The notes under the pieces: generated by a model | Databases searched by the model: none | The model's input: only the letters and a program-made list of their open reading frames with translations | What the model was told of the DNA's origin: nothing | NCBI GenBank assembly: GCA_905178155.1 | Contig: CAJINV010000001.1 | Span: forward strand, 8,693,642 to 8,757,641 | Source of the DNA: Amoebophrya sp. A120 | Taxonomy: Eukaryota; Protista; Dinoflagellata | DNA: 64,000 bases | Direction of reading: 5' to 3' | Made by a program: the position numbers and the translations under genes | Shown: positions 18,795 to 61,449 of the stretch, piece by piece | Position numbering within the stretch: the first letter of the stretch is position 1 | Layout of the letters: every line of letters starts with the position of its first letter

Positions 18795-21562
18795 ATGATG
18801 TGGCGAAAAATACCGAAGGGCACGTGGATCATTGGGTCTTGCTTAGCCCGCTTCTTCATGTCCCTCTGCCTCACATTGTGCTTGCCGTTTTACTTATTTG
18901 CGCGGATGAACCTCCACGGAGGAGGAGGGCGGTATCGGGCCAGTATTTTTGCTGCAGCCGAGATTGCAGTCCATGACGCATCCTTCGAGCAATTATCACG
19001 AGCGCCAGCGACACAAGACAGCACGCCTGCAAGCTCGGAAAGAAATGACTGGACGCCACAGCAAGTCATTGGCACCATCTTCGACGTGCTACGTGAGAAG
19101 AAGCAGACGGAGCGCAGGACTTCCAAAAAAAAGGAAGCAGCGGGCAGTTTCGAAAACAATAGGAGAACACACCCACCAGAAGACCCTTTAGCGCAGGAGC
19201 AGAGTTCCTGGTCGGGGTCGTCGTGGTGGTCATTAGCTGGTGTCGATTCCGGAGCTGTTTCGCGTCCTGCTGCACAGCTGCAGCAGCTACCGCGAGCTCT
19301 ACAATTAGCCATGAGTGAATGCGCCCCGGGCAACACGGTGAATAGTTGCTTGACTGATCACTGCACTCGATACGCAGACCGGACCCACTGCCTGGAAAAC
19401 GGGGGCGCGGACCGAGATTGTTGTGCGTTGGCGGGCACTGGCAGTTGCAAGAACACCACGGCGGCCAAATTTGTACAGATTCGGGCAAACAATCGGGAAA
19501 ACGTCTGTAACACAGGGGTGCGGGCCATCTCCACCTGCTGCATTCCCGAAGCCACCATTCTTTCGGGGGCCTACGTGGTGACTGCGGAGGACCGGGCGCG
19601 ACCGGTGTCCCGGTCGGACCGCTTGACGTGCAACGACGAGTGGTGCCGATCGCCCGGCTTGGCCCCCGCGCAATACGACTGCTGGGCGGGGTCCTCGCGC
19701 GAGGCCTGCGACTGTGACCAGGGCAAAGCGAAGCTGACGGGGCTGACCTCGGAGTACGGAGGGGACAAGTACTACAGCTACACCTGCTGTTTGGGCGACG
19801 ACTCCTCCCTATCAAATGCAAAAATGTCTGGGTCTGGGAGGATGGTGGAACTTGTCGTGCTAAATCTGAATCATGCAAGAAATCTGTGCTGCGTGATTAC
19901 CAACAGCCGTCATTTTTTACCAAGTTGAGAGGGAATTTCTCATGCAGGATAGGCATGCACATGCTAGAGATCTCACAGAGTTTGTTATGCTAGGCGCTGC
20001 ATTCCAGACCTCATGAGTCATAGAAAACCTGCATGACAAACCGTAGGGAACAGTCGTGCTCGATAATCAAAGCGACATAGAGTACAGATTCGGTTATTCG
20101 TGTTAGGCCGTAGAAGGTTGCCACGTCGTTAGCGCAAGGTTTTGACTAGGTATGAAAGAAATTAAAACATGGGAGAAAAAAGCACAACAATGATACCAGC
20201 ACCTCCCCAATGAAGGGGAGGTGTGTGCATGCTATTCCTTTTTTACCATTCCAAAGACTTAGGCCGTTCTTTTTTTCTTGAAATGGGGGAAGTCCTAGTA
20301 TGAAGTCCTAGTTAAGACACATATGCATAAGCTGCTCCAGGTCAGGGCAACTATCACAGACAAAAGTGCAGATGGAGCATGGGTGTTCTACTTGTGTGAA
20401 CTGTGATAGGCCGTGGCTGCAGGTTTCCGACTACCAAAAGACTCTGAATGCGCGGCACTAAACATTCAGGCGGGTAACAACATCTGCTATGTGATACGTA
20501 TTCTGAGAAAGTCTCTCGCTGCATTTTCGAATGTGAAGCTATGTATGAGCACTGGCTTGGAATAGCAGATATGTATGAAGATTAATGTGATGAAAAATAT
20601 GAAGTGTCTTAACAAAAGAAGGACGTGACTTCTTTTCATATTTGGGGATCTAAAGAGAAGGAAAGGGCTCACGATGCTACCTATATACAGGAGCAGCTAA
20701 ACAGGACTGAAGGGCTGGACGGGACAGGTACTGACGTCGAAGCGCTCTGCGCCTGAGACGTCACACATAGCAACAGAGATCAAACGGGCGCCGCGATACA
20801 TAAACGTGCCGATGTTGCTATCTGGGACAGACATGCAGTCGCATCGCACAACCGGGAGAAAGTAGTTTTTTTTGCATGTGGGTAGCCGTGTATAGAGGCC
20901 GAAATCCCCTCCCGCATTCAAAAAAAAAAAAAAAACCTGCATGACAAACCTGGCAATCTTCCAGACCCAGACATTTTTACAGTTGATACTCCCTGGTCGG
21001 CCGAGAGTGCGGGGACTTCAGTGAGCTGCCGGTGTGGGCAGTGCTTATCATCATCCTAGCCGTAATGTGCCTATGCTGCGGCACGTGCGCGGTTATCTTC
21101 TGCGTCTGTTGCCGCCAACAGAACCAAAATCCTCCGGGGCACACATATTACAACACGGGGGCCCAGCCACAGGTGGTGTACGGTGCGGGGCAGCAGCAAA
21201 TGATGATGCAGCACCAGCAACAAGCTTTCGGCGGACCATCTTCGTACGGGCCGCCTCCACCTGGAGGAATGCAGTACCAGACGTACGCAGGCTATCATGC
21301 TCCAGGAGGGCCTGGCAGCGGCCAGCCCCCGATGGTGATGTACCAGATGAACAACGCGCAACCCGTGATAGGGCCGGACGGGCAATTGCTATATCCCATG
21401 CAGCAACAGCCGCAGCCAGAGGGCGGCGCGTTTTTTCCTCCGGTAGGCAGTGGTGGCGGCAGTGGTGCCGAACAGCCTGGCCTGGTAACACACGGCAGGC
21501 CTGTGTCCTCCGATCAGCAGCCAAGAGGCCCCATCGTCGTAGAAATGAACCGCAAGTATTGA
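18795..21562 (+). CDS. Cys-rich type I membrane protein with a Pro/Gln/Gly-rich cytosolic tail; exons 18795-19809 and 20994-21562
   Basis: Removing introner A plus one TSD gives ...TCCLGDDSSL|VGRECGDFSELPVWAVLIIILAVMCLCC, in frame with ORF 21032. Confidence 0.8.
19810..20988. mobile_element. Introner A (TIR family 1), about 271 bp core plus a nested insert
   Basis: TATCAAATGCAAAAATGTCTGGGTCTGG...CCAGACCCAGACATTTTTACAGTTGATA; TSD CTCCC at 19805-09 and 20989-93. Confidence 0.92.
20043..20931 (+). mobile_element. Poly(A)-tailed retroposed insert (889 bp) nested in introner A
   Basis: 19-bp direct repeat AAAACCTGCATGACAAACC at 20024-42 and 20932-50, with an A-run at 20920-35 running into the second copy. 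Confidence 0.85.
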
Positions 21563-22451: not shown

Positions 22452-25400
22452 ATGGTGCTCCACCGCCCAGCGCCCAGCGCGGATCAAGATGACCCGGGCG
22501 CCTTTTCATTCGCAAGCACGAACCGGTTGCATGCGCGCCGGGGTCCCAAAGACCCGGACACGATCTTCGTAGGGGAGACGCCCGATTTTGTGTACTTGAT
22601 TGATTCGCTGGGTAATGTGTTGGTGGACGATATCCAGGAAAAAAAGTGTGTAAGTGTAACTTTCTTTGAGACACAGCATCACAAATTTGCTCTACATGAC
22701 AAAGAAAACCTGTCATGCGTGGCTTATAAGGGAAAACACACATGGAAAGAGGACTTCGTGTCTGTCTGGCATGACAGGTGTAACTCTGTTGCATGCTCTG
22801 CAACACAAGTTTACACTTACACAGTTTTTTTCTTGCATAGACGACGATCTCCGTCTGGTACAGCCCGAGGACTTGACCTGGTCGTCGCAGGGAAAGGTGC
22901 AAGTAGTAAACAAGCGGAAACTATCCTGAGTAAAAACGTACCCACACCAGAGTTGTAATGCAGATTTGCAAAGACAGGAAGACTTGTAATGCGCATCCCC
23001 ATGAGAGCCATTTCCAATCGTGTTTTGGAATTTGTGATGCTGTGAACAGGATGAGCAGATGAATCTGTGACGCGGCTGCACTTGCTAACCTGCACTACGC
23101 TGCAGAGTGCAGCTTGTCATGCGTGACTCACAAAACTCCGAGGTTTGTGTTGCAAAATCCTCATCCTGACTCTGGTGTGGGTACGTTTTTACTCAGGATA
23201 GAAACAAGGAAGTAAGAGCAGCAGACCGGCACGTCCCACCGCGGGTTCTTTCGGGCTGCTGCAGAGCCGAGGCGACGCTGTGGTTCTGGACGAAGCGCAC
23301 GCGAAGAAGCGACCCCTGGTCAAGGACGTGTCGGAGCAGATTGCAGCGGACTTTGCGAAGTCGGTGAAGCAGTCGACGAAATACCTCGGATATGCGCCAA
23401 CGGTGTCCACGGGCGGGTTCCAGGCGAAGCCTGTGTTTCCCCAGCAGCACACGCAGTACAGTGCAACGGGACAGTGGAATTCGAAGTTGTTCGATGACTA
23501 CTTGGAGGACACCAACGCACGTCTCATGCGGTCCGTGGAAAACATGCGGCAAAGTCAGAACGGCGACTATTCAAGGCGAAAAGCGTGGCGGTTTTTTGTC
23601 TCAGAAGGGCTATGCCATTTTTGCATGATGGTTCTTTGATAATCTCCTCGCCATGATGTGCTGCTGTCAGCTGATTCGATTGGATTTTCAATCGCGTGAC
23701 CGCATTAAATTCTGATACATAGATACAACAATCAAAGGTCATGCTGGTCATCCACTCAACCATGCAAGCATAAGCAACGCCCGAGGTGTACTAGTTCAAC
23801 GCATTATTTTGCTTCTTGATTGCAGCAAACCGGAGGGAACGACACACTTGACTCCTCGCGCACGGCAACGCGATGGGGCCTATTTCAAGGTACTATGGCA
23901 AGAACGGATTTTCTCTTTTTTGCAAAGTTGTGGCAGTTGTACGTACAAGTCGGGGGAGACTTCTGAAGGCCCATACCCACTATATTTTTTTATGTCATTC
24001 TGCTTTACATATGTCGTGCGTAGCAGTTATATCAATTTACATGATCAAGCAAGAGGGTTGCACACTCCGACGTCGGGCTGGCTGCCCGATGTCGACCAGC
24101 TTCCGCTGGTTCTCTGTCCTCTATCTAGAATCTCCGCTTCGTCCGGGCTTGCCTGGACTCGGCGTTTTTTCCCCGCCCTCCCACCCAGCTGCTGCAGCTT
24201 CATTGCGAGATACCCTGCGGCACCCCCCGCAAGCCTCCCCAGATGTTCGGTGGGCCATGTCGTGTTCCACGGCTTGGCCCACCTTCACGTCCGGGGCGTG
24301 GCTCTGTGGGGTTTGAGAGCTTGGCTCGCGCGGCTTGCTACTTGTAGCTCGCTGTGCCGGCCGGGTTCTCTTCTTGCTCGCCAGTGTGACCGTCGCAGGG
24401 CGTCCCGCGACGAGGACTGCAGCGCGCGTCAGCACTGCCTTCGATTATCATCGTTTCCGCGCGCTTTCGCTCGTTGGGTGAATTGCGCCAGGAATGTGAA
24501 TTTATATGTCGTGCGTAGCAGTTATATCAATTTACATGATCAAGCAAGAGGGTTGCACACTCCGACGTCGGGCTGGCTGCCCGATGTCGACCAGCTTCCG
24601 CTGGTTCTCTGTCCTCTATCTAGAATCTCCGCTTCGTCCGGGCTTGCCTGGACTCGGCGTTTTTTCCCCGCCCTCCCACCCAGCTGCTGCAGCTTCATTG
24701 CGAGATACCCTGCGGCACCCCCCGCAAGCCTCCCCAGATGTTCGGTGGGCCATGTCGTGTTCCACGGCTTGGCCCACCTTCACGTCCGGGGCGTGGCTCT
24801 GTGGGGTTTGAGAGCTTGGCTCGCGCGGCTTGCTACTTGTAGCTCGCTGTGCCGGCCGGGTTCTCTTCTTGCTCGCCAGTGTGACCGTCGCAGGGCGTCC
24901 CGCGACGAGGACTGCAGCGCGCGTCAGCACTGCCTTCGATTATCATCGTTTCCGCGCGCTTTCGCTCGTTGGGTGAATTGCGCCAGGAATGTGAATTTAT
25001 ATGTCGTGCGTAGCAGTTATATCAATTTACATGATCAAGCAAGAGGGTTGCACACTCCGACGTCGGGCTGGCTGCCCGATGTCGACCAGCTTCCGCTGGT
25101 TCTCTGTCCTCTATCTAGAATCTCCGCTTCGTCCGGGCTTGCCTGGACTCGGCGTTTTTTCCCCGCCCTCCCACCCAGCTGCTGCAGCTTCATTGCGAGA
25201 TACCCTGCGGCACCCCCCGCAAGCCTCCCCAGATGTTCGGTGGGCCATGTCGTGTTCCACGGCTTGGCCCACCTTCACGTCCGGGGCGTGGCTCTGTGGG
25301 GTTTGAGAGCTTGGCTCGCGCGGCTTGCTACTTGTAGCTCGCTGTGCCGGCCGGGTTCTCTTCTTGCTCGCCAGTGTGACCGTCGCAGGGCGTCCCGCGA

Positions 25401-28400
25401 CGAGGACTGCAGCGCGCGTCAGCACTGCCTTCGATTATCATCGTTTCCGCGCGCTTTCGCTCGTTGGGTGAATTGCGCCAGGAATGTGAATTTATATGTC
25501 GTGCGTAGCAGTTATATCAATTTACATGATCAAGCAAGAGGGTTGCACACTCCGACGTCGGGCTGGCTGCCCGATGTCGACCAGCTTCCGCTGGTTCTCT
25601 GTCCTCTATCTAGAATCTCCGCTTCGTCCGGGCTTGCCTGGACTCGGCGTTTTTTCCCCGCCCTCCCACCCAGCTGCTGCAGCTTCATTGCGAGATACCC
25701 TGCGGCACCCCCCGCAAGCCTCCCCAGATGTTCGGTGGGCCATGTCGTGTTCCACGGCTTGGCCCACCTTCACGTCCGGGGCGTGGCTCTGTGGGGTTTG
25801 AGAGCTTGGCTCGCGCGGCTTGCTACTTGTAGCTCGCTGTGCCGGCCGGGTTCTCTTCTTGCTCGCCAGTGTGACCGTCGCAGGGCGTCCCGCGACGAGG
25901 ACTGCAGCGCGCGTCAGCACTGCCTTCGATTATCATCGTTTCCGCGCGCTTTCGCTCGTTGGGTGAATTGCGCCAGGAGTGTGAATTTATATAATGTTTG
26001 TTCCACCTTGTCGAAAAGGAAAAAAATCGGAATCAGGATCGCGTTGCGAAGAACCGCGAGCGCATTCGCGGTGCCCGGTTTGCGTATTTTGCCCAGCAAA
26101 ACATGGACGAGTTGGAACTTTTGGAGAAGGCACCGGACTGGGTGGCGGAGGGGAAGCTTTCGGAGTGGGACGAGCACCGGCACTTCCAATCGCACAATGA
26201 GGACGGGAGTCCGAAGAGCTACGCCACGCTGGCCGACGAGTTTATGAAGCACAACCGCGACGTGCCGATGACCAAGCGGAAGATGCGTGCACTCGTGGAG
26301 GCCCGCGAGGCGGAGAAAGTGGAGGAGCTCGCGCGGCTTCGCCAGGCGAATGAAAAAATGCTCTCGCTGGACAAGCCCACGGTGGAATCCCGGAAGCGAT
26401 CGTCAAAATTCGGATTGGAAACGGGTTCGGGTGCGTTCGAGCGCCGGTACAGCCCCGCCAACCGGCTCGCCCCCGGCCCGGTGGTGGCCGACCTGGCCGT
26501 GCAGGATCTGCGGGCCGCCGCGGAAGCGCTCGAGCGGGAGGATATCAAATGCAAAAATGTCTGGGTCTGGAAGGATGCAACTTGTGATGCGCATTTCACA
26601 ACACACAAAAATCTCTCATGCATAGGTAGCAAAAGCTGCCCACTTTCTGTCACCAAAATGGGGGATTTGTCATGTTGATTTGGCATTGCTGAAGCTTCTC
26701 GAAGCCTGTGATGCTAGAGCTTCCATGCCAGACCTTCTGTGTCATGCAAAAACAGTATGACTCTTCCAGACCCAGACATTTTTACATTTCATAGAGGACG
26801 AGCTCATGCAACGCAGAGACGCCGCAGTCGGAGTGGTCGCGCGGCGCCCCAAGTCCGCACCCGCGGTGGAGACTACTACATCCAGTGCTGCGGAGGGTGC
26901 AGCTCCTGTGCTGGACGACACGATGAACAACTCGCTGAATTATACCATGAAGAGTGGCGCTGGTGCACTTTCCACGTCTAGCAGCAAACAACCCGGTGGA
27001 GGAAGCAGATCTAGTGGTCTCACGACCCGCCAGGGGGAGAACATCAAGATGGCGTATCACCACTCCCGGGGGATGGTGAGACCCCTGGGTGCACCCGGGT
27101 GGAACTCGTGTCCCCGGTCCGCCAAGACCTTTGACGGCATCGCACCGGCGCACCACTGGAAGAAGCGCCAGGGTTCGCGCCGCCCGGATGGAACCAGTGC
27201 GTACGAGCGGGTCGGTGGGCAGCATCACCGCATCCCGACCTCCGCCTCCGACGTCGGCCAGCACTTCCCGAGGGGCGCCGCCGACCGCCTGCGCCAGGTC
27301 ATTTTCACCCGAGCAAAAGCCAAGGCGAGACCGCCGGTTGCAGTGCCGGAAAGGCCGCTATTCACGCAAGGCGGAACACTGCTCAGTGAGCAGCCCCGTT
27401 TCTTGTCATACCAGAAATCGGTGGAACCTGGCGAATTAGATGTAGCGGAACACGAGGCAGCGGCAAAAGATTTTGAGAACTACGCCAACGAGAACAACAA
27501 CGTCGTTGACCGACAGGACGTCTCGGGCTATCGGGTGGTAACCAAACAAGACGACATCACCTCTCAAGGCTACGACGAGGGAGATATGGCGAGTGGCGGA
27601 TCACGAGGAGATTTGCTAAAATCCGGAACGTCAGGACCCCTGGATAAGAGCGGTAAGTACTTGTGTTGAAGACCTTTGTTGTTTAGTCTTCCTCTTCTAA
27701 AAATTCAGTCCAAAGCATGTACAGCTAAGTTCAAGGTCGTTCTTAGGAGACAGACTACTTAAATGTTTTTACGTGCACACAACGAAAGGAAAACTGAAAC
27801 TTTTCAGTAATCGTAAAAATATCAACGGCAGATCATGTTACTTTATCCTGATACTCGACTGATAGATTTTCTGCTCCTTCAGGTACAGGGAGGAACAAGA
27901 GTAACGTGACCGTCAGTGAAGACATTGACGCACTGATACAGCGCACGCTCGAAGGCCACTTGCGTAAAGCGATAGCGGAAGAGGGGCCGGACTCGGAGCG
28001 CGCGCTCGCCATATCCATGAAGTTGGGTCTAAGCCGGACACCGAGTCGGAAGCCGCCGTCTTCTTCAAAGGCCTCGGTGCTTGGGAAAGAGCCCTCGGGC
28101 GCAGACTTTCCGGATTCTGATGACGTCCCGCCCACGACGGAGGAGGAAACCATCTTTGTGCCCCCGACCAAACAGGAGGCCAGGGTGAGTGCCGCGCAGG
28201 GACGCGGAAGCAGCACAGCTAGTGCCGCTGATCGCGGAACGACTGGTAGCAAAAAAAGCGCTTCTGCTAGTGGTGCTGCAACACGACCTGCCGGCGTCAA
28301 AAAGTACAAGGAGCTGGGTGCTACAGTGGACGCCAGGGAAGTAAGTGAGTTCAACAGAACGAGCAAAGAACCAAGAAATGCCAACGACGCGGATGAGCAA

Positions 28401-35944: not shown

Positions 35945-36044
35945 NNNNNNNNNNNNNNNNNNNNNNNNNNNNNNNNNNNNNNNNNNNNNNNNNNNNNNNN
36001 NNNNNNNNNNNNNNNNNNNNNNNNNNNNNNNNNNNNNNNNNNNN
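35945..36044. other. Assembly gap (100 N)
   Basis: Run of N. Confidence 1.
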
Positions 36045-42943: not shown

Positions 42944-45205
42944 TATCCAGGTCTCACTCTCGATCTCCTTCTACGATAAATGAGCATTTGTCGTAGACCA
43001 TTCCGGCCAACGCTCAAACCAGCTAAAAGTCGGTTTTGTTGCTGATCAAAAGAGAGTTTAGTAGTACTATCGTGTTGGTGAGAACGTGGATGGGTAACTG
43101 TAGATAGTGGTGAAAAAACGGATCTTGCGAGCGTTGTATTATTATCTCCTCGACCTAAAACTCGTTTTTACTTTCCTTTTTTGTAAAACTCACCTTGTCC
43201 CGATAAGAAAGTCAAGCACTCGCTCACTTTTGCTCTAGCTTTGCCTTTTCCCTTTGCACAGTATTAGCTTGTTGTTGGTAAGAGAAAAATTATCTCCCCG
43301 ACCTGTAGCTCGTTCCGCCTCCTCCTTTACAAAAAAAGTGAAATTTTCCGCCTTTCGAAATCAGCAACAAGTAGATCGTTATGTTTTGACTAGCGCTACC
43401 TAGAAATAGTCGATCTAGCCTACCTAGAGTTTCGTGCCACAAGAGAGCCCGGTGAAAGAAGTTGAAAAGTGAACCCGCAGAGAAAGACAGACCGTGAAAC
43501 CTGGACAATCGCTGCCATAGTCGACTTTGTCGGCTGGCTAGCTATGTATGTTTTATGTCTCCTCGGCCGGTAGCGAGCCGCATCTTCGCGAAAGCCGTGC
43601 ATTTGCCACTAGTTATAGGTGAGACCGCATCTCTCACGCCCCGCGTTGTTCCTGGGCCGTAGTGTCATATCTACTTCTCCAGGCGCGGCGCATAGCGCTT
43701 TTTTTCGATTTGTAGACCCTCGTCGGCACAACTTTTAGATTGTAACGTGGCGGCGCGCGCAATGCGAATGCTATCGCTCGCGGTGCTCAGTTCTCTCTGA
43801 GTTTTGGATTTCCCTTGTCGGGGTGACGGTTTTCTAGTTAGGTTCAGCCTGGGTCGATTTGGGTCGACAGCAGTACTTTTCAGACGATAGGACGTCTTTC
43901 TCTTTCTGTGCGTTCCGAAGGGAGTTTTGTTTCGCGTCCCCACCAACGGACCGGCTTGCGCTGACTGTCTGCTAGGTCCTGGCGGGCGCCGTTCGCCCAG
44001 GTGGAAGTGTGTCGCGTCCTACGGGTTTCGTAGTGGAGTTAGTTTTGCGGTGTCCTCTGGTGGGGGACGGTTTCGCTATCACAAACCGGCTTTTATAGGC
44101 CCCCCCGGCCGAGCCAGCCAAGGGGACGACGGCCGGGCTTTTGCCTGGGGGGCGTGCTCCCTTTAGTATGGCCTCAGTGCCCCGGGATCGGGTAGAAGTT
44201 TTTGCCCAGGTGGGGGTCTGTGGTTTTGTGTCATGGGCTAGTTGCCACCGTTTGGGTGCAGTTGGCTTCTCGCCTGATTGTTTGCTAGCAGGCGGCTTTA
44301 GGAGCCGTCTCAGGGTGTTCTCTAGCTGAGTTGCGGGTGGAACAAGGAGCCCTGGGCGGGTTGCGCGTACGGGTCTCGGGGATTGCTCGCGGACAGAGGT
44401 TCTAGTTTTTCTTAGTCTGTTGCCCGTTAGGCCCTTCTCCAGGTCGGAAGGGCCCGCCTCGTCGTTTCACCATTCGGGTGCCCGGAATCCAAGCAAGCTC
44501 GCCTTTGTTTTCGCGCTACTTACGGGTGCTGTCCGCTTTCGTTCTCAGGGTTTCCTTTCTTCCAGATAGATCTCAAGGCCCGGTGGCCAGGGGAGGGCTG
44601 CCTTTGGAATTGCTTTTCGGCATTGAATGGCTGCAGATCTTTGTCGAGCTTGGCTCGCTGCTGTCCAGTTGCGCCCGCTAGTGGGGGCTGCTGTTGGTTG
44701 GCGGGTCCTTGGGTGACCACTGTTCTGTTGATGGACAGGCACTGTGCCTTGTTGCCGGTTTTGTTTGGCCCGCTTCGCCTTTGTCAGAAGGGGTAGCTAG
44801 CACCGCGTCCCGACGAGGATTGCTGCGAAGTGGTTGGCTTTTTGTTGAAGACTATCGAAGAAGCCTGTACTCGCCTTGTTTTTTTTTGTTGATGGTTTGC
44901 TGCTTTCTCATCACCCCTGTGCCGCGTGGATTGTGGGTGCTATTGCTTGTTGCTACGCCGTTTCTCCCTTCCATTTATTTCCGACACAGCTTGGGGCTGT
45001 TTTCCTGTTTCGAGGGGGTTTTCCGCCTCTTCATTATTGTGGGAGGTTCGCGCTGCCGTTCGTCCGGCGGCTGGCCCTCCTTGTGTCATTGCTATCTCGC
45101 CCTATCTCGCCCTCCTTGTGTCATTGCTATCTCCTGTGCCAACGTGGAGCAAGGAAAGCGGGATCCCTATCCAGGTCTCACTCTCGATCTCCTTCTACGA
45201 TAAAT
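42944..45205. mobile_element. 2.2-kb compositionally distinct segment between 38-bp direct repeats (possible insertion or decayed TE)
   Basis: TATCCAGGTCTCACTCTCGATCTCCTTCTACGATAAAT at 42944-42981 and 45168-45205. The interior is G/T-skewed and has no credible ORF. Confidence 0.5.
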
Positions 45206-45552: not shown

Positions 45553-46500
45553 ATGGCGATTCTGTCCAAGTTGAAGCACGTGACCGCTGCCGCCCTTTTC
45601 CTGGGCACGACGATGCAGCAAAACTTCCGACTGGCAGCTGCGGAGGACGCCGCCGCGGCGGACGACAAGGAGCTTGACGACCTCGATGACGAGTCCACCG
45701 CCGCTTCGAGTGTCCCCGGCGAGCCGCTGGTGCTGACGGACGCCTCGTTTAAGAGCGAGTTGGACAAGGCCCTGAAACCGATGTTCGTCAAGTTTTACGC
45801 GCCCTGGTGCGGGCACTGCAAGGCGATGGCGGCGGACTGGGACAAGCTCGCGGAACAGGCGACGGGGGCGGTGATCGCGAAGGTGGACGCGACGGTGGAG
45901 CGGGAAGCCGCGAACTTGATGAAGGTGCGGGGCTTCCTATGCAAGAAAAAAACTGCGTGAGTGTAACTCTGTTTATGCAGAACATGCTACTACGCTTACG
46001 CCTGTCATGCCAGACAGCCATGAGTTCCTCTTTTCATGCGTGTTTTCCCTTACAAGTAGCCACGCATGACAGATTTTCTCTGACATGTAGAGCAAATTTG
46101 TGATGCTGTCGGCCAAAGATAGTTACACTAACACAGTTTTTTTCTTGGATACTTCCCGACGCTGACCCTGTTCGACAAGAACGTGATGTACAGCTACAAC
46201 GGGCCGCGGACCCTGGACGCCATGCTGCAGTTCGCGAACGGCGGCTACAAGGCGGGTAGTAGCAAAAACCTGCCCTGGAACGAGTCCATCGTGGACAAGG
46301 TGAAACAGCACGTGGAGGAGTACTTCACCAAGGTCGGCCAGATCATGGCCTTCGAGCCGACCATCCTGCCAATTTGCTTCTTCCTCGGCTTCTTCTTCGC
46401 GTTTATTTTCTTCTTCCTCTGCTGCGGCTTCTCCTCCTCCTCGTCCCCGGTCGACAAGAAGGAGCTGAAAAAGGCGGAAAAGGCAGCCAAGGCGGAGTAA
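45553..46500 (+). CDS. PDI/TMX-like thioredoxin-domain membrane protein; exons 45553-45937 and 46157-46500
   Basis: FVKFYAPWCGHCK and IAKVDAT. Removing introner H restores VRGFPTLTLF...YNGPRT. N-terminal signal-like segment and a C-terminal TM helix. Confidence 0.92.
45938..46151. mobile_element. Introner H (TIR family 2), 214 bp
   Basis: TATGCAAGAAAAAAACTGCGTGAGTGTAACT...AGTTACACTAACACAGTTTTTTTCTTGGATA; TSD CTTCC. Confidence 0.95.
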
Positions 46501-50144: not shown

Positions 50145-53038
50145 ATGCGTTTCAGTGTAGTAAAGTCGCGCTCGCGCCTGTGGCTCCGCACAGTGGCTGG
50201 CATTCTTGCGACCGTGCACGGACTGAAGCTGCATGGATCTTCTCGAGAGGACGACGGTAGCATCTTTCGCGCGAAAGTCGAGGTCGCTAAAGGCGACATC
50301 ATATGGCTGCAGCATGTCGAGCCTGGATCCACCTCTGGTAGCGCTACCACAGCAAAAATTCGGTTCGGCCACGGCTTCTCGTCCGGGTCAACAGCAGTCG
50401 CCTCTTCTCTTTCTGGTCCAGGATCCGCTCCGCGAGTCGAGGACTTGGAGCCGCCTGTTTGTCTAACTTGTCCACTGTGCACCGAGCCGTCGCCGCTCGA
50501 ATACGATTGGCGCTTGCTGGCCAGACAGTCAGAACAGGCCAAGCTGGAGCAAGAAAGTATCGAGTGAGCCCGTATAATCCGTTCTTTTTGGTGTCGTCTA
50601 ATCATGTACTTAACCACACTAGTTCGGCGATGAAGATGATCTTCTACTTCGGAGGCCACAAAAAAATGTAAAAGATCCAAGCGACGGGGACTGAGATGTG
50701 AGATTGTAGCGTGAAGAAGTAGTTTAAAACGCGAACGAACAGAGACGACGGAGCCGATCGAGCAGCTGTACTACATGTACAACAGCGACGCGGTGCTGCG
50801 CCTGCCTCTGCGTGTTTCCCCGGGCGATGGCGTCGTCTACTTTTCGGTGCTTAACGCGGCAAAGATGGGAGGCATCGGTTTCGGCGAGTTTTTTCCCCGC
50901 GGCTTGGCGAAGAAGTATCTGCTGTACCAAATCGCCATCCGCTGGCCGGCGGAGCACTCCTTCGCGTCTTGCGACAGCAAAAAGGACTGCTTGGAATTGC
51001 AACTGCTGCACGTGGCCGAGGACCTGTCGCAGTCCTGGGTGAGTTTCGGGTTCTCACCGGCCGTATCAACAGTAAAAATGTCTGGGTCTGGAAACTTGTG
51101 ATGCTGGGTGGCGTCTCATGATGAGGCTACAGATGCTGGCTCAGCATGACAAGTTTCTGAGCTCCTACGTGTTGCCTATTCTGCATGACAAAGCGCGCTT
51201 CTGCATCACAGAAAAACGGAGCTCTCGGGTAACTTGCATGACAGATTTAAGAGTCATGCCAGACAAGCATGACAAACATGAATTCTTCCAGACCCAGACA
51301 TTTTTACAGTTGATAGGCCGTGGAGCCGTTGCGGCCGAGTTTGCTCGCGCAGCTCACGCAGATCAACCCAAGTACGGGGAACCGCCTGCACAGCGACTTG
51401 GCGCCGGAACTGGCGGAGAACGAAGAGCTCCCGATTGGCACGATCGATTTGGAAGCCTTGTTCGCTCCTTTGAGAAGGGACGAAAAAGACACGAGTGCGG
51501 TTGGTCTTACACTTCACGCGAACGGCACTAGTACTGCAGCGAATAGAACCAGTCGCATCTACGCCGCGCAGAAAAGCAATGAAACGACCACGAGTGGGAA
51601 TTATCTGGAGGCAATAAACAACTCGACCGCAGTAGAGCCAGCGCCGCCTGTGAAGGCAGGGAACAAGGACAAGAACGCAGTTGAGTTCGTCACCTACGAA
51701 GACCCGGGAAGTGGTACGGCCGGCACCGACAACGTCGCGCCGTTCACTCCAACCCGCTGGTTCGTCCGAGCAAAAGAGGTATTTCCGATGAAGGCTACCG
51801 TGTTCGAGAAGATCAAAGCTTTTATCGCACTTCACAAAGCCGATGGGAACAGTAGGGCGTCGGTTGCTCCGAAGCCTGTATTGAAAAGTGTCGTCGGCAG
51901 CATGAGTGGTCCGGAAAGTGGTGGGAACGCTGTGATGTTTTACGAGCAGACGAAATCAGCAGAGCACAAAATAAGCAAACCTCCTACAGTGGCGAAATCA
52001 TCATTAGCTTCCGGGAGTTCTTCTTCTACCTCTCCTGCGATGCCATCGTGCGTGCCAGCCAAACTGATGCCCTCTGCGGCCGCCCGACCGCTTCTTGCCG
52101 CAGTCCCGCGCGTGGCGCCGATTAGCGGGAAGCTGCAAGGCGTGCAGGACATTTTCAATCGAATCGAGGCGGAGAACGCAACGAAATCAAAGCCAGGTGC
52201 GGCCGCAAGCGAAGACGAGCCACCTAGTAGTGCGGCTGGAACAAATACAAGCGCCGCAGCCGCCGTTCAGCTTGCGCTGCCGCCCAAGCCGGAAGATATC
52301 ACGATCGACTGCACGACGTGTGGCGCCCGCGGGATTGCCTACCGCCATCCGAACGTGATTTCTCGGAGCCGCACGAACCGCACCGCGGAGGACCTCGCAG
52401 AGCACTGCAAACTCGTACAAAGCGCACAAGCGGTGGTCAAGGAAAAGCAAAACAAGGCCTTGGCGATCGCAGTGGAGCGGGCCCGATGCAGAAATTTGAT
52501 CGACAGCCGCAACTACAATCCGTACGCCCCCTATGCGCAGTGCAAGCACGCCATTCAAAGGCTCGAGAAATCATACGCGGACGCAAGCGACGAGCTGACG
52601 AAAGCCCAACGGGAGAAGGATCGGATCAAGAGTGCGAAGGCCGGAAACATCGCAAAGGCGCAAGACATGTTGGATGCGGCCAAAGAGGCCGCAACAGGCG
52701 ATGACGCAAAGACGGTGACCGAGGCGCCATCCGAGCCCGGGGTGGTGATCCCGGAAGAAGAAACCTCCACGACGCCCGCGCCGGCAGCCACTACCGACGG
52801 CAGCATGATCTCGAACCTGATGGGTGCAGGGGCAGATGCGAACGAAAGGGAATATCACCCGCCCGAGGACCCGCTGGTGTGTCCGGAAATCTTTTTGAAG
52901 CCGAAAAAGACGAACTTCGGTTGCGCGTTACAGAATGTCGACCCCTTCGTGATGGATAGTGCAATGACCTGTGCAGGAGAAGTGCCGAGTGACGCCAATT
53001 TCCGGTTCGGAGATCCGTCCGCTGACTTGGTTCGCTAG
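50145..53038 (+). CDS. Probably secreted hypothetical protein; exons 50145-50556, 50743-51063, 51321-53038
   Basis: Signal-like MRFSVVKSRSRLWLRTVAGILATVHG. GT-AG intron 50557-50742 and removal of introner C give 2451 nt in frame. Confidence 0.7.
51064..51315. mobile_element. Introner C (TIR family 1), 252 bp
   Basis: TATCAACAGTAAAAATGTCTGGGTCTGGAA...TTCCAGACCCAGACATTTTTACAGTTGATA; TSD GGCCG; restores FSPAV|EPLRP. Confidence 0.93.
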
Positions 53039-54100
53039 TAGAAGAATAGCGTTTGTTGGTGGCCCACTTTCTTCGTTTCAATTCTGCACTTTTCTTTTCC
53101 GTTTCGCTCGCAACGTGCTCTCGTTTCGCTGGTCTGACAGGAAGAAGGTAAACGGTTTCCGAAGCCGGAGTATTGTTTTCGACGGATCCTGTGCAATAAT
53201 CCTCGCTGGATCGTTTTATGTTCTGAGGTTTCTGTTTATCATTATCAACAATGGGTCACTCTTCGTCTTCAGATAGTCTCAGTACCAGCACAAAAAAACG
53301 AGGACAGTGGTACAACAAAGGAGAGATTTGCTTCTGCAAAATGGAAAATGCAAATTGCGATCAAAATCATCAAATACGAAAGAAAAATAATACACGATGT
53401 TATTTAAGTATATTCATATACCGTCATGAAAACCAAAACTTGAAGTAGCGGAATAGTTGTGCAGCTTCTGGTTTATTTGCGATGCCGCAAGTGCTTTCTG
53501 TGAGCCTCGTGCTTCCTCGTTGTGCGTTTTTCCATGGAAAAATGTTGAAACAGACCGAAACTCATGATGATCTGCACATTGCTTTTGGTTCAAAATCAAA
53601 AATGATAGGGGGGCACTACGTCACGTAGCGTACCGTAGTACCACAGCTAGTAGAAAACATCATCACGCACACAGACACGCGCAAGCGCGTCACGTCGTGT
53701 GTCTTGAAATGATACTGTGAAAGATCCTGCTCGTCCTCGTGCCTCAATCCTCTCTCGTTCTTTTTTGCCCATATTAATATAGCCCTTGCAGTAGAAGCTG
53801 TGTTTTTTTCCTAAACAAGAGTCCGGGACTACCATCGATCGGGCCAGCGGCACGGCTGAGGACCTGCGAGGCCGCACGTCTGCTGCATCGATCATGAGCT
53901 TTGTTGCCACCATGGCTGAATCGTGGCCGACAGCAGCAATACGGGGTTGATCAAGCTGCGACATGAAGATGTTACATCAACTTCTGTGAAGCTGAGGACG
54001 ACGCGCAAGTGTAAGGACGACCAATCAGGTCGTGGAACAAAAGCTCCCTGAATAAACGGCATCCATTCGGCCACCAGTACTTCTATCCAGAAGTGCAAAA

Positions 54101-56915
54101 ATGGAGCTGGCCATCAGTGAGCAGCAGACCCGCGAGACGCGGCGCGAGCGGCAAATGCGCAAAACTTTATCTACTCGACGGAACGAACAGTACTTGACCA
54201 ATTTGGAGAAACGGAATGAAGAAAATCGAGAGCGGCTGGTCGACCGGGCGGAAGCAGACTTCTTCCCCGCGCACTTGCTGAAGGACGTTTCCCGCGTTGA
54301 AAGCGACGAGGAAGAAGACGACGCAGAAACCAGTGGCTCTTTCTATCCCCCCGCAGCCGCGGACGACACAGACCTGAGTAGCTCTTGTACTGCAGGAGCG
54401 AACCACCAGGAAGATTCGAACTCGTCTCGGCGCTCCGCCAGCTGCTCGAGCGCGGCGAATGCAGCAGGGGGTCAGCAACATCAAACAGCGTCCGCCTTGT
54501 CTACTTTCCGAACCCCATTCACCAGGACCACAAGCAGTCAAATACTAAAACCCGCGATTAACCACAACTCGCTGGTGATTAAGAGCCTGGCGGGCGTTGC
54601 GAATCCGGAAGAGCTATCAAATGTAAAAATGTCTGGGTCTGGAAGAGTCATGCTGTTTTTGCATGACACAGAAGGTCTGGCATGGAAGCTCTTGCATCAC
54701 AGATGTCGAGAAGCTTCCGCAATGCCGAATCCGCATGACAAGTCCCCTATTTTGCTGACAGAAAGTGGGGAGCTTTTGCTACATATGCATGAGAGACTTT
54801 GCTGTGTTCTGAAATACGCATTACAAGTTGCATTCTTCAGACCCAGACACTTTTGCATTTGATAAGAGCGGGAGCAGCGGGAACTGGAGTTGCGGGAGAT
54901 CTACCTGTATTCTGTGCAAAAGTATCGTACTCGTACAAATGCAAGCCTTGCATTACAAATCTTGCTGCCAAGGCAAATCTGCATGACAAATTTAATTTCT
55001 CATGCTGAGGAAATTTGTAATGCATTTATACGAGTACGATACTTTTGCACAGCATAACCTGCGAAAAGGCATTCCCTTTCCGGACGACGAAGTCTTGCAT
55101 ACGAACCTCGCAGGAGCTACCACATCGAGCAGTTTGATCAGCTATCAAATGCAAATATGTCTGGGTCTGGAAGAATAGGACTTGTGATGCTAACTCTCGA
55201 TCATACAAAAAACTGTATTGCATGACCAGCAAAAGATGCTCAGATTTGTGCAACCCGGATCGGGCATTTCTCATGCAGGATAGGCATGAGAAAGCCTTCG
55301 CGAGGGCTGTGATGCTAGAGAATGCATCACAAGCATCGTGGGTCATGTACAATTTGCATGACAAACACCCAAATCTTCCAGACCCAGACATATTTGCAAT
55401 GCATATCAGCGACCGGACGAGCAGCGAGGTGCAGCACTACACCATGGAGGACGACTATGGAACTGTCAGAATCAAAATTGACAAGGTCGAAAAATCTGTG
55501 ATGCATAAAATCGATACCAGTTGGAGCCTCAGTTTGTAAGTGGCGCATGACAAATTTCGGGAGCAACCAAATCCAGTCTGTCATGCTGTTTGGGCAAAGA
55601 AGACTGCTCCTGTCGTGCTACTCTGGCAGCACATTGCATATCCCTAAACACACTGACAATCAGTCTCATTTTCCTGCTCCCCAATACAGGCCTCCAGTGC
55701 CCTGCATTTTATGCATGAGAAATTCTTTCTGCGGTAGCTTCACGACCTGGTGGCCGAACCATCTGCGGTGAGGTGCCCTTACAGGTTGTGTAGTGGTTTC
55801 GGTCGGTTTAGCATGAGAAATTCTTTCAACTTTGTCGATTTCGATCCTGACACATCCATAACGACGACGACGATCTGGAGGACTGCTCGGCCGGCGCTGA
55901 ACTAGTCGACGTCTCGCAGAGCGTAGTAGAGCAGGATGAGGGTCGTGGCGGCTTGAGAACAAGTGGCGGCACCACTTCTACTGCGCCCGGGGCAGCTGCA
56001 CCTCCTGCAGCTGAGCAACAAAAGACGACCGAGGGCTTGCTCCTTGCTGCGAAAAAATTGATATCGGCGACGAGTGACAGCTGTACAAGCACCACGGAAA
56101 ACGATGAAGCGCAGGTTCCAACAACAACTTTTTGTTCTCAAACCAGCACTGGAAGTTCTTCTGGGATTGTACCAGGAAATTATAGAGGCGCTACAACTAC
56201 TTCTACGCCACCACCTGTGCACCAGCAGAACCGAGATGGGCGTTCGGGAACGTCCTCATCTAGCGAACAAACGACAACAACCTACGAAAGTTGTGTGGAG
56301 GGTGGAACTATGGTAGCTCCAGCTGTACCACATCCGCAATCTACTTCTGACGCAGACTTCCTGCCAGCCCAGGAGCCGGCGAAAATGCAAGCGCAGCGCC
56401 CGACAAAACTCCCGCCGTTTACTGCCGCCGTGACGCCGAAAACTGCGACCTCGACAGGGTCGTCTTCAAAACGCCGCGACCAACCTCCGCCGCGCTTTTA
56501 CACCCCATCCTCCGGCGGGGCCCCCGGAGCAGATCGGGGGGACGAGTTGTACAGAGGAGGAGGCGTAGACGAGGACGATGAATTATCGTGCCAACAGCAA
56601 ATACCGGTTCGGAAACAGTCCGACTTCGCCTCACCGGCATCGAGCTACAAGACCACGCACAGCGGCGCCACCTCAGCCGCTGTGTCCCCGGTAAAAGTGC
56701 TAGCTGCAGTAGAGATGAAAATGAATACAAACGAGATCGGGAAGAACAAGCTTTTTGTACAACCTCCAGGAGCTGCCCCACCTCATCTCTCGACGACGGG
56801 TGCTGGGGTAGTTGCTTGTGCTGGTGTAGACAACTCGAATAAAGAGCTGCCCGACGACGTGGAGGTGGTCAAGACGCTGCCGAACATCGAGGAGGACCCT
56901 TGGTGGAAAGCTTGA
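54101..56915 (+). CDS. Hypothetical Ser/Thr-rich protein split by four introners; exons 54101-54614, 54870-54907, 55062-55142, 55411-55455, 55866-56915
   Basis: Sequential removal of D, E, F and G (each with one TSD) gives 1728 nt with no internal stop. Confidence 0.85.
54615..54864. mobile_element. Introner D (TIR family 1), 250 bp, inverted copy of B
   Basis: Family-1 TIRs; TSD AGAGC; interior aligns by eye to the reverse complement of 26543-26793. Confidence 0.93.
54908..55056. mobile_element. Introner E (TIR family 4), 149 bp
   Basis: TATTCTGTGCAAAAGTATCGTACTCGTACAAATGCA...TGCATTTATACGAGTACGATACTTTTGCACAGCATA; TSD ACCTG. Confidence 0.93.
55143..55405. mobile_element. Introner F (TIR family 1), 263 bp
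   Basis: TATCAAATGCAAATATGTCTGGGTCTGGAAG...CTTCCAGACCCAGACATATTTGCAATGCATA; TSD TCAGC; interior related to the core of A. Confidence 0.92.
55456..55860. mobile_element. Introner G (TIR family 5), 405 bp
   Basis: TATGGAACTGTCAGAATCAAAATTGACAAGGTCGAAA versus right-end reverse complement TATGGATGTGTCAGGATCGAAATCGACAAAGTTGAAA; TSD ACGAC. Confidence 0.9.
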
Positions 56916-57910
56916 GTGGAGTCAGGAAAAGGTACGTCTACTTGCACAGGGCCGCGACTTGGTCGATGAGTAATTGTAAGTGAGTCAATGTCTTCTATCT
57001 GTCGCTCATCAGCAGCACGGGGGGGTAGGTAGTTCATTCGCCTGCGCGGGACCGCTCAGGCGACAGCTTTTTGGGCTACAAATTGTCACAGGAAGTATTG
57101 AGGGCGGAATCTGAAAGAATCATCGTGCCTGAAAGTCAAAATAAGTCAAAATGCAGCTCATGTACACGACAGCAAGAAGAACGTACTCGTACACAACTAA
57201 CACCATCATACTAGCATGGATAATTTGCAACTCACGCGCATTCAAAACCGATACCGAGATTTTTTGTAGCATTGACCTGATACAGTTACAAAGCTTATAA
57301 GCCGAATCTCGCTGCCTGGAGTAGATGAAGCCCCCAGTTTGTGCACTGGAAGATATTGGAAGTCTGATCATGCCAGCCCCTATAATCGCTTGCCAAGATG
57401 GTGCAGTATGCCGATGTTCAGTTCAGTCCTTGTCCCAGTTGATATGCGAAAGAAAAGCAGACGGAGAGGTGCTGTTGAGCCAGCCCGATTCAAAGAACAA
57501 TTTGACTCTGGTTTGGAATGTTTTGTGCTCATTAGACGAGTTATATATAAGTATATTCGCTGTTCGAATATGGCGTGACCATCAGCGAAAGGTGATCCCG
57601 ATAAAATAGCAGAGGAGATCTGCGTGACCACTTCCTGATGAATATCAAATCAATGAGAGCAGATCTCAGTAAGGCTAAAGACTTCCCCTTTATTCTTTTG
57701 CATCCTTCTCATGTAGAACAAGAATTTGCAAATTACTTGTTTGTTGATGTTCATAAAAAGGTCGTCCTTTTTCCACCCAGTGAGCTGAAACTTATCTCTA
57801 CTTACTACCTAGCCACCACCTGCTGGCTTTTTTTCCTGTCAGAATATGAATAAGTTATTTCCACCTACAAAGATGAACGAGTAGTCTCCTCTGTCCGTGT
57901 CCTCTCTCTG

Positions 57911-60299: not shown

Positions 60300-61040
60300 G
60301 CCGACTCTAGCCTCTGCCTACCGGCTGCCGCTAACCTGCCGGCTGGCTGCAGCTAGCCCGCCGGCTGCCGCGCCCGCATGAGCCCCTGCCGGCCGGCTGC
60401 CGCTGGCCCCTACGGTCCTCCCTGCCGGCTGCCGCTGGCCCCTGCGTACCTCCCTGCCGGCTGCCGCTGGCCTCCGCCTGCCGCTGGGTGGCCCCTGCCT
60501 GCCGCTGGCTTCCTCCTGCCCGCCGCGGGCCTCGGCCTGCCGCTGGCCCCTTCCTGCCCGCCGCTGGCCTCGGCCTGCCGCTGGCCTCGGCCCGCCGGCT
60601 GCCTGCGTGCCGCTAGCCTTTGCCGGCGGGCCGCTACCCTTTGCCGGCGGGCCGCTAGCCTTTGCCGGCGGGCCGCTACCCTTTGCCGGCGGGCCGCTAC
60701 CCTTTGCCGGCGGGCCGCTACCCTTTGCCGGCGGGCCGCTAGCCTGTGATGCTTGCCGGCGGGCCGCTAGCCTGTGATGCTTGCCGGCGGGCCGCTAGCC
60801 TTTGATGCTTGCCGGCGGGCCGCTAGCCTTTGATGCTTGCCGGCGGGCCGCTAGCCTTTGATGCTTGCCGGCGGGCCGCTAGCCTTTGATGCCGGCGGGC
60901 CGCTAGCCTTTGATGCCGGCGTGCCGCTAGCCTTTGCCGGTTGCCGGCCGCTGGCCAGCCTGCCGACCGGCCACTGCTAGCCTTCCGGCTGTTGCTGGCC
61001 TACCGGCCGCCGCTAGGTAGCCTGCCGGCTGCCTTGCGCA
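60300..61040. repeat. GC-rich minisatellite; core of 21-, 28- and 24-bp units at 60609-60940
   Basis: GCCGCTA(G/C)CCTTTGCCGGCGG x6, then GCCGCTAGCCT(G/T)TGATGCTTGCCGGCGG x5, then 24-mers. The flanks are degenerate. Confidence 0.9.
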
Positions 61041-61161
61041 TGTTGGTGGCTCTCCTGTTGTGGTCCGTGGCTGCCGCTCTGCTCACGGCAGCCAGGGCCC
61101 TGCAATATGTAGCTTTTTGCGCCCTGTCTCCTGACGAAATCGCGTTGGCCGCTCTGCGGGC

Positions 61162-61449
61162 TCCCTTAAGCATCCCCTTAAAGATCCCCTTAAAGATTCC
61201 CCTAAGAATGCCCTTAAAGCTGCCCCTTAAAGATTTCCCCTTAAAAATATCGCCTTAAAACCTTTCGGCCTGAATCCATGCTATGGGCCCGGTTTTTTGC
61301 TGGGTGCCAAAACCTTGCGCCATCGCGCACAGAAAAACGCAGCATACCGCCGGTGCAAAAATGAACCCCCATGGTATGAATGATTCCGCGCCCCCCCTTT
61401 TTTTAAGGAGTTTCTTAAGGGGAAGTCTTAAGGGGAGGTCTTAAGGGGT
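61162..61449. repeat. Inverted arrays of CCCTTAA and TTAAGG(GG) units
   Basis: About 8 CCC(T)TAA units at 61162-61260 face 4 TTAAGG(GG) units at 61402-61449. Confidence 0.8.

What the first reader, a model, noticed from the sequence alone, without database searches (positions are those of the whole stretch)
54615..55860. Introner hotspot: four elements from three families in 1.25 kb, leaving 38-, 81- and 45-nt micro-exons
Seen: D, E, F and G are excised in series to give one open frame. D and F share family-1 TIRs, so the left TIR of D could pair with the right TIR of F and skip two exons, but their TSDs differ (AGAGC versus TCAGC). This is a natural experiment on whether TSD identity or proximity sets splice-partner choice.
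Basis: partly seen in the sequence, partly recalled or inferred. Interest (0 to 1): 0.75.

Follow-up and report, generated by a model that had tools for sequence, protein, structure and literature searches.

The report
Jumping introns cluster beside each other
Four already-known transposon-like introns sit 38-81 bases apart in one gene of the marine parasite Amoebophrya and are each missing from the assembled likely-RNA transcript with no exon skipped, and such tight spacing recurs far above chance in a related assembly, likely because new copies land next to older ones.

Summary
Observation confirmed to the base: four TAT...ATA elements with 5-bp target duplications (three families) and 38/81/45-nt exons. 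Removing them gives the annotated 575-aa Amoebophrya A120 protein exactly. Contigs from 4 of 4 RNA-like runs keep all three small exons; no skip was seen, but contigs drop rare forms. The class is published.

The proposed experiment cannot decide the question. Each element's own end is both nearest and TSD-matched, and the skip would frameshift. D and F are oppositely oriented, and equilibrium folding prefers the wrong D:F pairing by 7-16 kcal/mol, yet the cognate product is seen. Imperfect TSDs occur in 10 of 103 elements in open frames. Local, co-transcriptional pairing is therefore the likely partner rule.

The hotspot is real and general. In a related assembly 46 of 147 neighbour gaps are 30-99 nt (12 expected), and 2 gaps are under 30 nt against 35 at 30-59 nt. 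Neighbours are no more often the same family. I did not find this spacing rule in print or in earlier scan notes. The shared internal motif and motif-targeted inserts were noted earlier by this scan on other DNA.

The parts
54615..54864 (.). Element D, family-1 introner, 250 nt, TSD AGAGC; removed with one TSD (255 nt)
   Evidence: 90% identical to 26543-26793 in reverse orientation
54870..54907 (+). 38-nt exon (counted with the upstream TSD copy of E)
54908..55056 (.). Element E, second family, 149 nt, TSD ACCTG; removed length 154 nt
   Evidence: 30 of 286 elements in related loci share this arm
55062..55142 (+). 81-nt exon
55143..55405 (.). Element F, family-1 introner, 263 nt, TSD TCAGC, opposite orientation to D; removed length 268 nt
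55411..55455 (+). 45-nt exon
55456..55860 (.). Element G, third family, 405 nt, TSD ACGAC; removed length 410 nt
55713..55827 (.). 98-nt secondary insertion in G: 81 nt between two 17-nt direct repeats that begin at the shared GCATGAGA motif
   Evidence: relatives align to G 1-272 and about 352-405 only
54101..56915 (+). Host coding sequence, 575-aa orphan protein P0001; the insertions fall at codons 172-226
   Evidence: no Pfam family; no relative found
53518..57368 (+). Stretch covered by the RNA-like contigs of this gene (left ends 53518-53775; contigs cannot fix true ends or strand; strand taken from the ORF)

Best explanation
These are four Amoebophrya A120-type transposon introns from three families, each missing with one target-site copy from the assembled likely-RNA transcript; each end likely finds its partner locally as the RNA is made, and the cluster likely arose because new copies land 30-100 bases outside an existing copy. 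Shown: anatomy, cognate product in contigs, frame, excess of 30-99-nt gaps and lack of gaps under 30 nt. Inferred, splicing: D's hairpin (about -107 kcal/mol) is predicted to form about 280 nt before F is transcribed and is removed or kinetically trapped before the more stable D:F duplex can form; exact TSD identity is likely not the partner rule. Inferred, insertion: a still unknown transposase shared by the families is drawn to resident ends (probably to the common GCATNA(C/G)A arrays) and inserts just beyond them; the 30-nt floor comes from its footprint or from selection against shorter exons. The splicing part I put at about 0.65, the insertion part at about 0.5.
For: Cognate product in 4 of 4 RNA-like runs, at most two samples, one study; DNA-like run X5 runs unbroken into D and out of G. 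Equilibrium folding favours D-left:F-right by 7-16 kcal/mol in 5 of 5 segments tried, so equilibrium pairing does not predict the product. The swap is also favoured on both strands in 9 of 16 close family-1 pairs in related loci, and inverted pairs are not depleted (8 opposite, 11 same within 400 nt; 12 and 8 at 400-1500 nt). Imperfect TSDs: 25 of 162 family-1 elements (7 with 3 or more mismatches, some of them boundary slips) and 10 of 103 elements whose removal opens a frame of 600 nt or more; mismatches spread evenly over the five positions (11/7/10/12/10). Clustering: 46 of 147 gaps at 30-99 nt against 12.3 expected, 0 of 2,000 simulations; within stop-free frames 27 of 63 against 8.7, 0 of 5,000; 2 gaps under 30 nt against 35 at 30-59 nt. 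Gap length is unrelated to element length (rho 0.001, n=75), so it is measured from the end. Close neighbours are the same family in 13 of 48 cases against 16 of 79 for distant ones, so this is not local hopping. Motif: GCATGACA occurs 18 times in 10 of 10 window elements and 0 times in the other 60,449 nt; the looser motif is in 283 of 286 elements in related loci; commonest same-strand spacings 39, 31, 32 nt.
Against: Contigs drop rare variants, and 339 joint rows were hidden, so low-level skipping is not excluded; the raw-read runs X8-X10 gave only 7, 7 and 1 partial reads. The folding margin is 1-5% of total energy, within model error. The TSD-mismatched elements have no RNA evidence here. 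If only a quarter of the DNA were target, the 30-99-nt excess alone is not significant (P=0.059), though the lack of gaps under 30 nt then is. No 10.5-nt periodicity in gap lengths (P=0.14), which protein-guided targeting might have given. No transposase was found or tested.
Confidence: 0.55

Rival explanations
1. Matching target duplications pick the splice partner (recombination-like joining of two identical 5-mers), so D cannot join F.
For: All 10 window elements have perfect TSDs; 137 of 162 family-1 elements do; no skip seen.
Against: 10 of 103 elements in open frames have 1-2 mismatches, at all positions. TSD mismatch per site (about 3%, my count) is close to arm-to-arm mismatch at conserved end positions (2-8%). 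D and F TSDs differ only at positions 1-2, where 7 of 12 gene-oriented mismatches fall.
Confidence: 0.15
2. Clustering comes from selection, not targeting: insertions survive more often 30-100 nt from an existing intron because the splicing machinery is recruited across short exons, and shorter exons are purged.
For: Sharp floor near 30 nt and end-anchored distance fit an RNA-level constraint; family identity does not matter.
Against: Isolated elements are spliced (45938-46151 is bridged in X2-X4) and are the majority (112 of 200); clustered and isolated elements are equally intact (TSD mismatch 12.5% and 14.3%).
Confidence: 0.25
3. Clustering comes from chromatin: a resident element leaves open, linker-like DNA beside its ends, and new copies insert there without sequence-specific recruitment.
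For: Linker-biased insertion is reported for introners in many genomes (PMC9860276, passages); the 30-100-nt range resembles linker lengths (my knowledge).
Against: A fixed nucleosome repeat predicts shorter gaps beside longer elements; none seen, and centre-to-centre distances spread from 207 to about 410 nt. Amoebophrya chromatin was not examined.
Confidence: 0.25
4. The elements are cut out of DNA (as in ciliate DNA elimination), or the spliced contigs come from DNA of a strain without the insertions.
For: Runs X1-X4 are only guessed to be RNA; precise loss of element plus one TSD is what DNA excision can give (my knowledge).
Against: X2-X4 fall to depth 0-1.7 over 43102-45003, where X5 has 47-130; listed pieces have 0 other letters; X5 contigs continue from exon into D (to 54638) and from G into exon (from 55835).
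Confidence: 0.05

Closest known systems
Introner elements of Amoebophrya sp. A120 (Farhat et al. 2021, PMC7789003; sections 10, 11, 12, 16, passages and a term search of the supplement text read)
   Same: TAT-starting inverted repeats, 3-5-nt direct repeats at the borders, non-GT-AG removal, many families (29,850 repeated introns, 1,954 families). The annotated A120 protein equals my spliced product.
   Different: In what I read the paper does not report neighbour spacing, cross-pairing between neighbours or the internal motif. Supplement figures could not be seen, only legends.
Amoebophrya A120 introners in Gozashti et al. 2025 (PMC12130899, passages)
   Same: States that diverse introners make, in some cases, tens of introns in one A120 gene, so four in a gene is ordinary.
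   Different: No spacing rule in the passages found; its datasets were not read.
MITE-type introners of Micromonas and Aureococcus (as described in PMC9860276 and PMC7789003, passages; Huff et al. 2016 could not be opened and is recalled only)
   Same: TIRs, TSDs, non-random insertion (linker DNA).
   Different: The Aureococcus elements are described with canonical splice motifs; none of D-G can be shifted to GT/GC-AG on the sense strand.
Euglena nonconventional introns (PMC12501133, abstract and passages)
   Same: Non-GT-AG introns with border direct repeats and complementary end motifs at fixed offsets; incidental exon skipping seen in some CTG-motif mutants.
   Different: Different motif (CAG/CTG type); genetically tested there, not in Amoebophrya; unrelated lineage.
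IS3EU/GingerRoot DNA transposons (PMC10045372, passages)
   Same: TA..TA termini.
   Different: Usually 6-bp TSD, 5 bp here; no transposase linked here.

Membership tests
Amoebophrya A120 introner elements | Inverted repeats at both ends starting TAT | tested here: met
   4 of 4, arms 27-37 nt
Amoebophrya A120 introner elements | 3-5-nt direct repeat over the borders | tested here: met
   5-nt perfect TSD in 4 of 4
Amoebophrya A120 introner elements | Repeated elsewhere in the genome | tested here: met
   D 90% to 26543-26793 and F 70% in the window; D, E, F, G have 78-92% relatives in related loci
Amoebophrya A120 introner elements | Absent from the transcript without GT-AG ends | tested here: met
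   Four joints in X1, 165-nt bridge in X2-X4 (RNA status inferred from coverage); no sense-strand GT/GC-AG in any shift
Amoebophrya A120 introner elements | Host is strain A120 | tested here: met
   P0001, named Amoebophrya sp. A120 by its source, is identical to the spliced product
Canonical U2 spliceosomal intron | GT/GC...AG on the transcribed strand | tested here: not met
   0 of 4; 5 of 93 sense and 3 of 93 antisense in related loci
Relaxed spliceosomal intron cut at -1/+4 (earlier scan notes) | Fixed cut position and end-specific conserved bases | tested here: inconclusive
   Perfect TSDs hide the cut in D-G. Among 14 strand-called of 17 end variants, position-1 changes were 5 at the 3' end and 1 at the 5' end, position-3 changes 3 and 3
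IS3EU/GingerRoot | TA..TA termini | tested here: met
IS3EU/GingerRoot | 6-bp TSD | tested here: not met
   5 bp throughout
hAT (5-bp TSD group, proposed in earlier scan notes) | Cognate transposase gene between the same ends | not tested
   I did not look for an autonomous element; no whole genome is held

The most novel reading that the evidence does not exclude
Amoebophrya introners breed next to each other: one transposase docks on a motif array shared by all families and drops new copies 30-100 bp outside a resident copy, so intron gain is self-reinforcing and chops exons into 30-100-nt pieces, while purely local hairpin folding keeps neighbouring same-family ends from cross-splicing even when the crossed pairing is more stable.
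Probability: 0.35. Interest if true: 0.75.

Novelty: already known. Interest (0 to 1): 0.48.

Why it matters
How A120 removes tens of thousands of non-GT-AG introns, and what moves them, are open questions (PMC7789003). This locus shows that the removal machinery copes with 38-nt exons and gives the cognate product although a crossed pairing is predicted to be more stable, which argues against equilibrium RNA structure as the partner rule. The 30-100-nt neighbour peak with a 30-nt floor is a measurable footprint of either the transposase or the splicing machinery and can be tested with the existing annotation. The elements themselves, and several per gene, are not new.

Tried and rejected
Raw RNA runs X8-X10: 7, 7 and 1 partial reads on repeat pieces only, so no read-level test. 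No run on record as RNA was listed as a holder; X1-X4 are treated as RNA from their coverage. Other G boundaries: three in-frame-length candidates did not open the frame, four did, and the contig picked the 410-nt one. E reads GT..AG on the antisense strand in one shift: treated as chance, since 3 of 93 elements do so. An apparent excess of TSD mismatches at position 1 in family 1 vanished in the full set. Helical periodicity of gaps: 10.5 nt P=0.14; best period 8.2 nt, P=0.037 against jittered gaps, not pursued. Depletion of inverted same-family neighbours: not seen. Local hopping: not seen. Fixed nucleosome repeat: not supported. End-specific base conservation: inconclusive. Protein relatives: only P0001 itself in three searches (sensitivity limited), no Pfam hit, so conservation of the small exons could not be judged. 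The X1 joint 55598-55820 (side 20 nt) probably comes from another G-family copy. X5 joints between element ends come from other loci and were not counted. Literature searches and scan look-ups showed no report of the spacing rule; look-ups list 8 notes at most and most subscription papers are not held, so this is weak evidence of novelty.

Full report
Observation. Each starts TAT, ends ATA, has 27-37-nt inverted arms and a perfect 5-bp duplication (AGAGC, ACCTG, TCAGC, ACGAC). Removing each with one duplication leaves 38-, 81- and 45-nt exons and a 575-aa frame. That frame is identical to P0001, an unnamed protein of Amoebophrya sp. A120. It has no Pfam match and no relative in three searches. 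Retaining any one element truncates it to 222-253 aa.

Expression. Run X1 holds one 2,738-nt contig with joints of 255, 154, 268 and 410 nt at exactly these elements. X2, X3 and X4 each hold one contig that links 54608 to 55861 with 165 letters, the three exons. These runs are only guessed to be RNA, but X2-X4 fall to depth 0-1.7 over 43102-45003, while X5 is near 42-59 in most bins and its contigs run from exon into D and from G into exon. No D-F skip joint is listed, but contigs drop rare forms, 339 joint rows were hidden, and the raw-read runs gave 7, 7 and 1 partial reads. The four runs are at most two samples of one study.

Known class. PMC7789003 (sections 10-12 and 16) describes A120 introner elements with TAT-starting inverted repeats, 3-5-nt direct repeats, non-canonical ends and an unknown removal mechanism. 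PMC12130899 (passages) says they make tens of introns in some genes. None of D-G can be shifted to GT/GC-AG on the sense strand.

The natural experiment. As posed it cannot separate TSD identity from proximity, because the cognate end satisfies both. The TSDs share AGC, and the skip would drop 119 nt and end in a 197-aa product. The locus does test something else. D and F are inverted relative to each other (67% over 257 nt), and equilibrium folding prefers D-left:F-right over the two cognate hairpins by 7-16 kcal/mol in 5 of 5 segments. In folds of growing transcripts D pairs with itself until about 55180 and switches by 55220. The observed product is cognate, so equilibrium structure does not predict it; the margin is small against model error. 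In 163 loci of another assembly carrying the same families (contigs JACKZZ01; merged to 146 pieces, 406 kb, 286 elements, 2 false calls in 244 kb of reversed sequence) this layout is common. There are 19 family-1 pairs within 400 nt, 8 of them inverted, and the swap is favoured on both strands in 9 of the 16 adjacent pairs folded. TSDs are imperfect in 25 of 162 family-1 elements and in 10 of 103 elements whose removal opens a long frame, at all five positions. I infer that partners are chosen locally and early, and that exact TSD identity is not required. The mismatched cases lack RNA evidence here.

The hotspot. In the window, 6 of 10 elements have a neighbour within 81 nt (D-G and 22631-22839/22922-23200), P<=0.001 under uniform placement. 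In the related loci 46 of 147 gaps are 30-99 nt against 12.3 expected from uniform placement per locus, or 22.8 if half the DNA is target (0 of 2,000 simulations each). If only a quarter is target the expectation is 37.6 (P=0.059), but then 21 gaps under 30 nt are expected and 2 are seen. Within stop-free frames the count is 27 of 63 against 8.7 (0 of 5,000). Over all loci 2 gaps are under 30 nt and 35 are 30-59 nt. Gap length does not depend on element length, close neighbours are not more often the same family (13 of 48 and 16 of 79), and there is no 10.5-nt phase. So this cluster is an instance of a general, end-anchored spacing, not a special site. These loci were picked by a family-1 pattern, and some elements were missed.

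Shared motif. GCATGACA occurs 18 times inside 10 of 10 window elements and 0 times in the other 60,449 nt; the looser GCATNA(C/G)A occurs 44 against 10 times, with a mean of 1.9 in 1,000 resamplings. It is in 283 of 286 elements in related loci, in both orientations, most often 39, 31 or 32 nt apart. I found this before looking it up; earlier scan notes report the same on other DNA. G is a normal family member plus a 98-nt insert bounded by a 17-nt repeat that starts at this motif, and element 19810-20988 has a 908-nt insert ending in an A run with a 19-nt repeat at the motif, which agrees with note e1-10628456.

Mechanism. Shown: anatomy, cognate product, clustering, motif. Inferred: hairpins form as the RNA is made and are removed one by one; a shared transposase binds the motif arrays and inserts just outside resident copies. 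Rivals for the clustering are selection on exon length and open chromatin beside ends; my data do not separate them well. The cut position inside the TSD (-1/+4 in earlier notes) could not be confirmed. In that register D and F would both read CT...AG, which would make D-left and F-right a nearly equivalent splice pair and strengthen the case for proximity.

Verdict. A real feature of a published class. The proposed experiment is weak, but the spacing rule and the mismatch between predicted fold and product are new leads that I did not find in searches or look-ups. Supplement figures of PMC7789003 and the datasets of PMC12130899 were not seen and may bear on this.

Noticed in passing
window 19810-20988: Family-1 element of 1,179 nt: a normal-sized element plus a 908-nt insert that ends in an A run and is bounded by a 19-nt direct repeat at the shared motif; looks like a retro-insertion.
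   Followed up: partly
   Followed up: partly
window 26543-26793: 90% identical to D but in the opposite orientation, between + strand frames.
   Followed up: partly
window 45938-46151: Isolated element, 84% identical to 22631-22839 in reverse, bridged as a 219-nt joint in X2, X3 and X4; flanking frames are on the minus strand.
   Followed up: yes
related loci, family 1: Orientation relative to the inferred gene strand is 31:16, a mild bias. Arm positions 10 and 14 agree within an element more than random pairing predicts, positions 4, 5 and 7 do not.
   Followed up: no
L010:7463-8717: 1,255-nt element with a 21-nt internal direct repeat starting at a variant of the shared motif.
   Followed up: no
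window 50557-51058: The X4 contig is about 186 nt shorter than the DNA here, beyond element 51064-51315, so another intron lies in this stretch.
   Followed up: no
window 24009-25992: Four 495-nt tandem copies, 99% identical, inside an 843-codon frame.
   Followed up: no
window 60314-61448: G+C-rich and CCCTTAA-like short tandem arrays.
   Followed up: no
window 35945-36044: Run of 100 N, an assembly gap.
   Followed up: no
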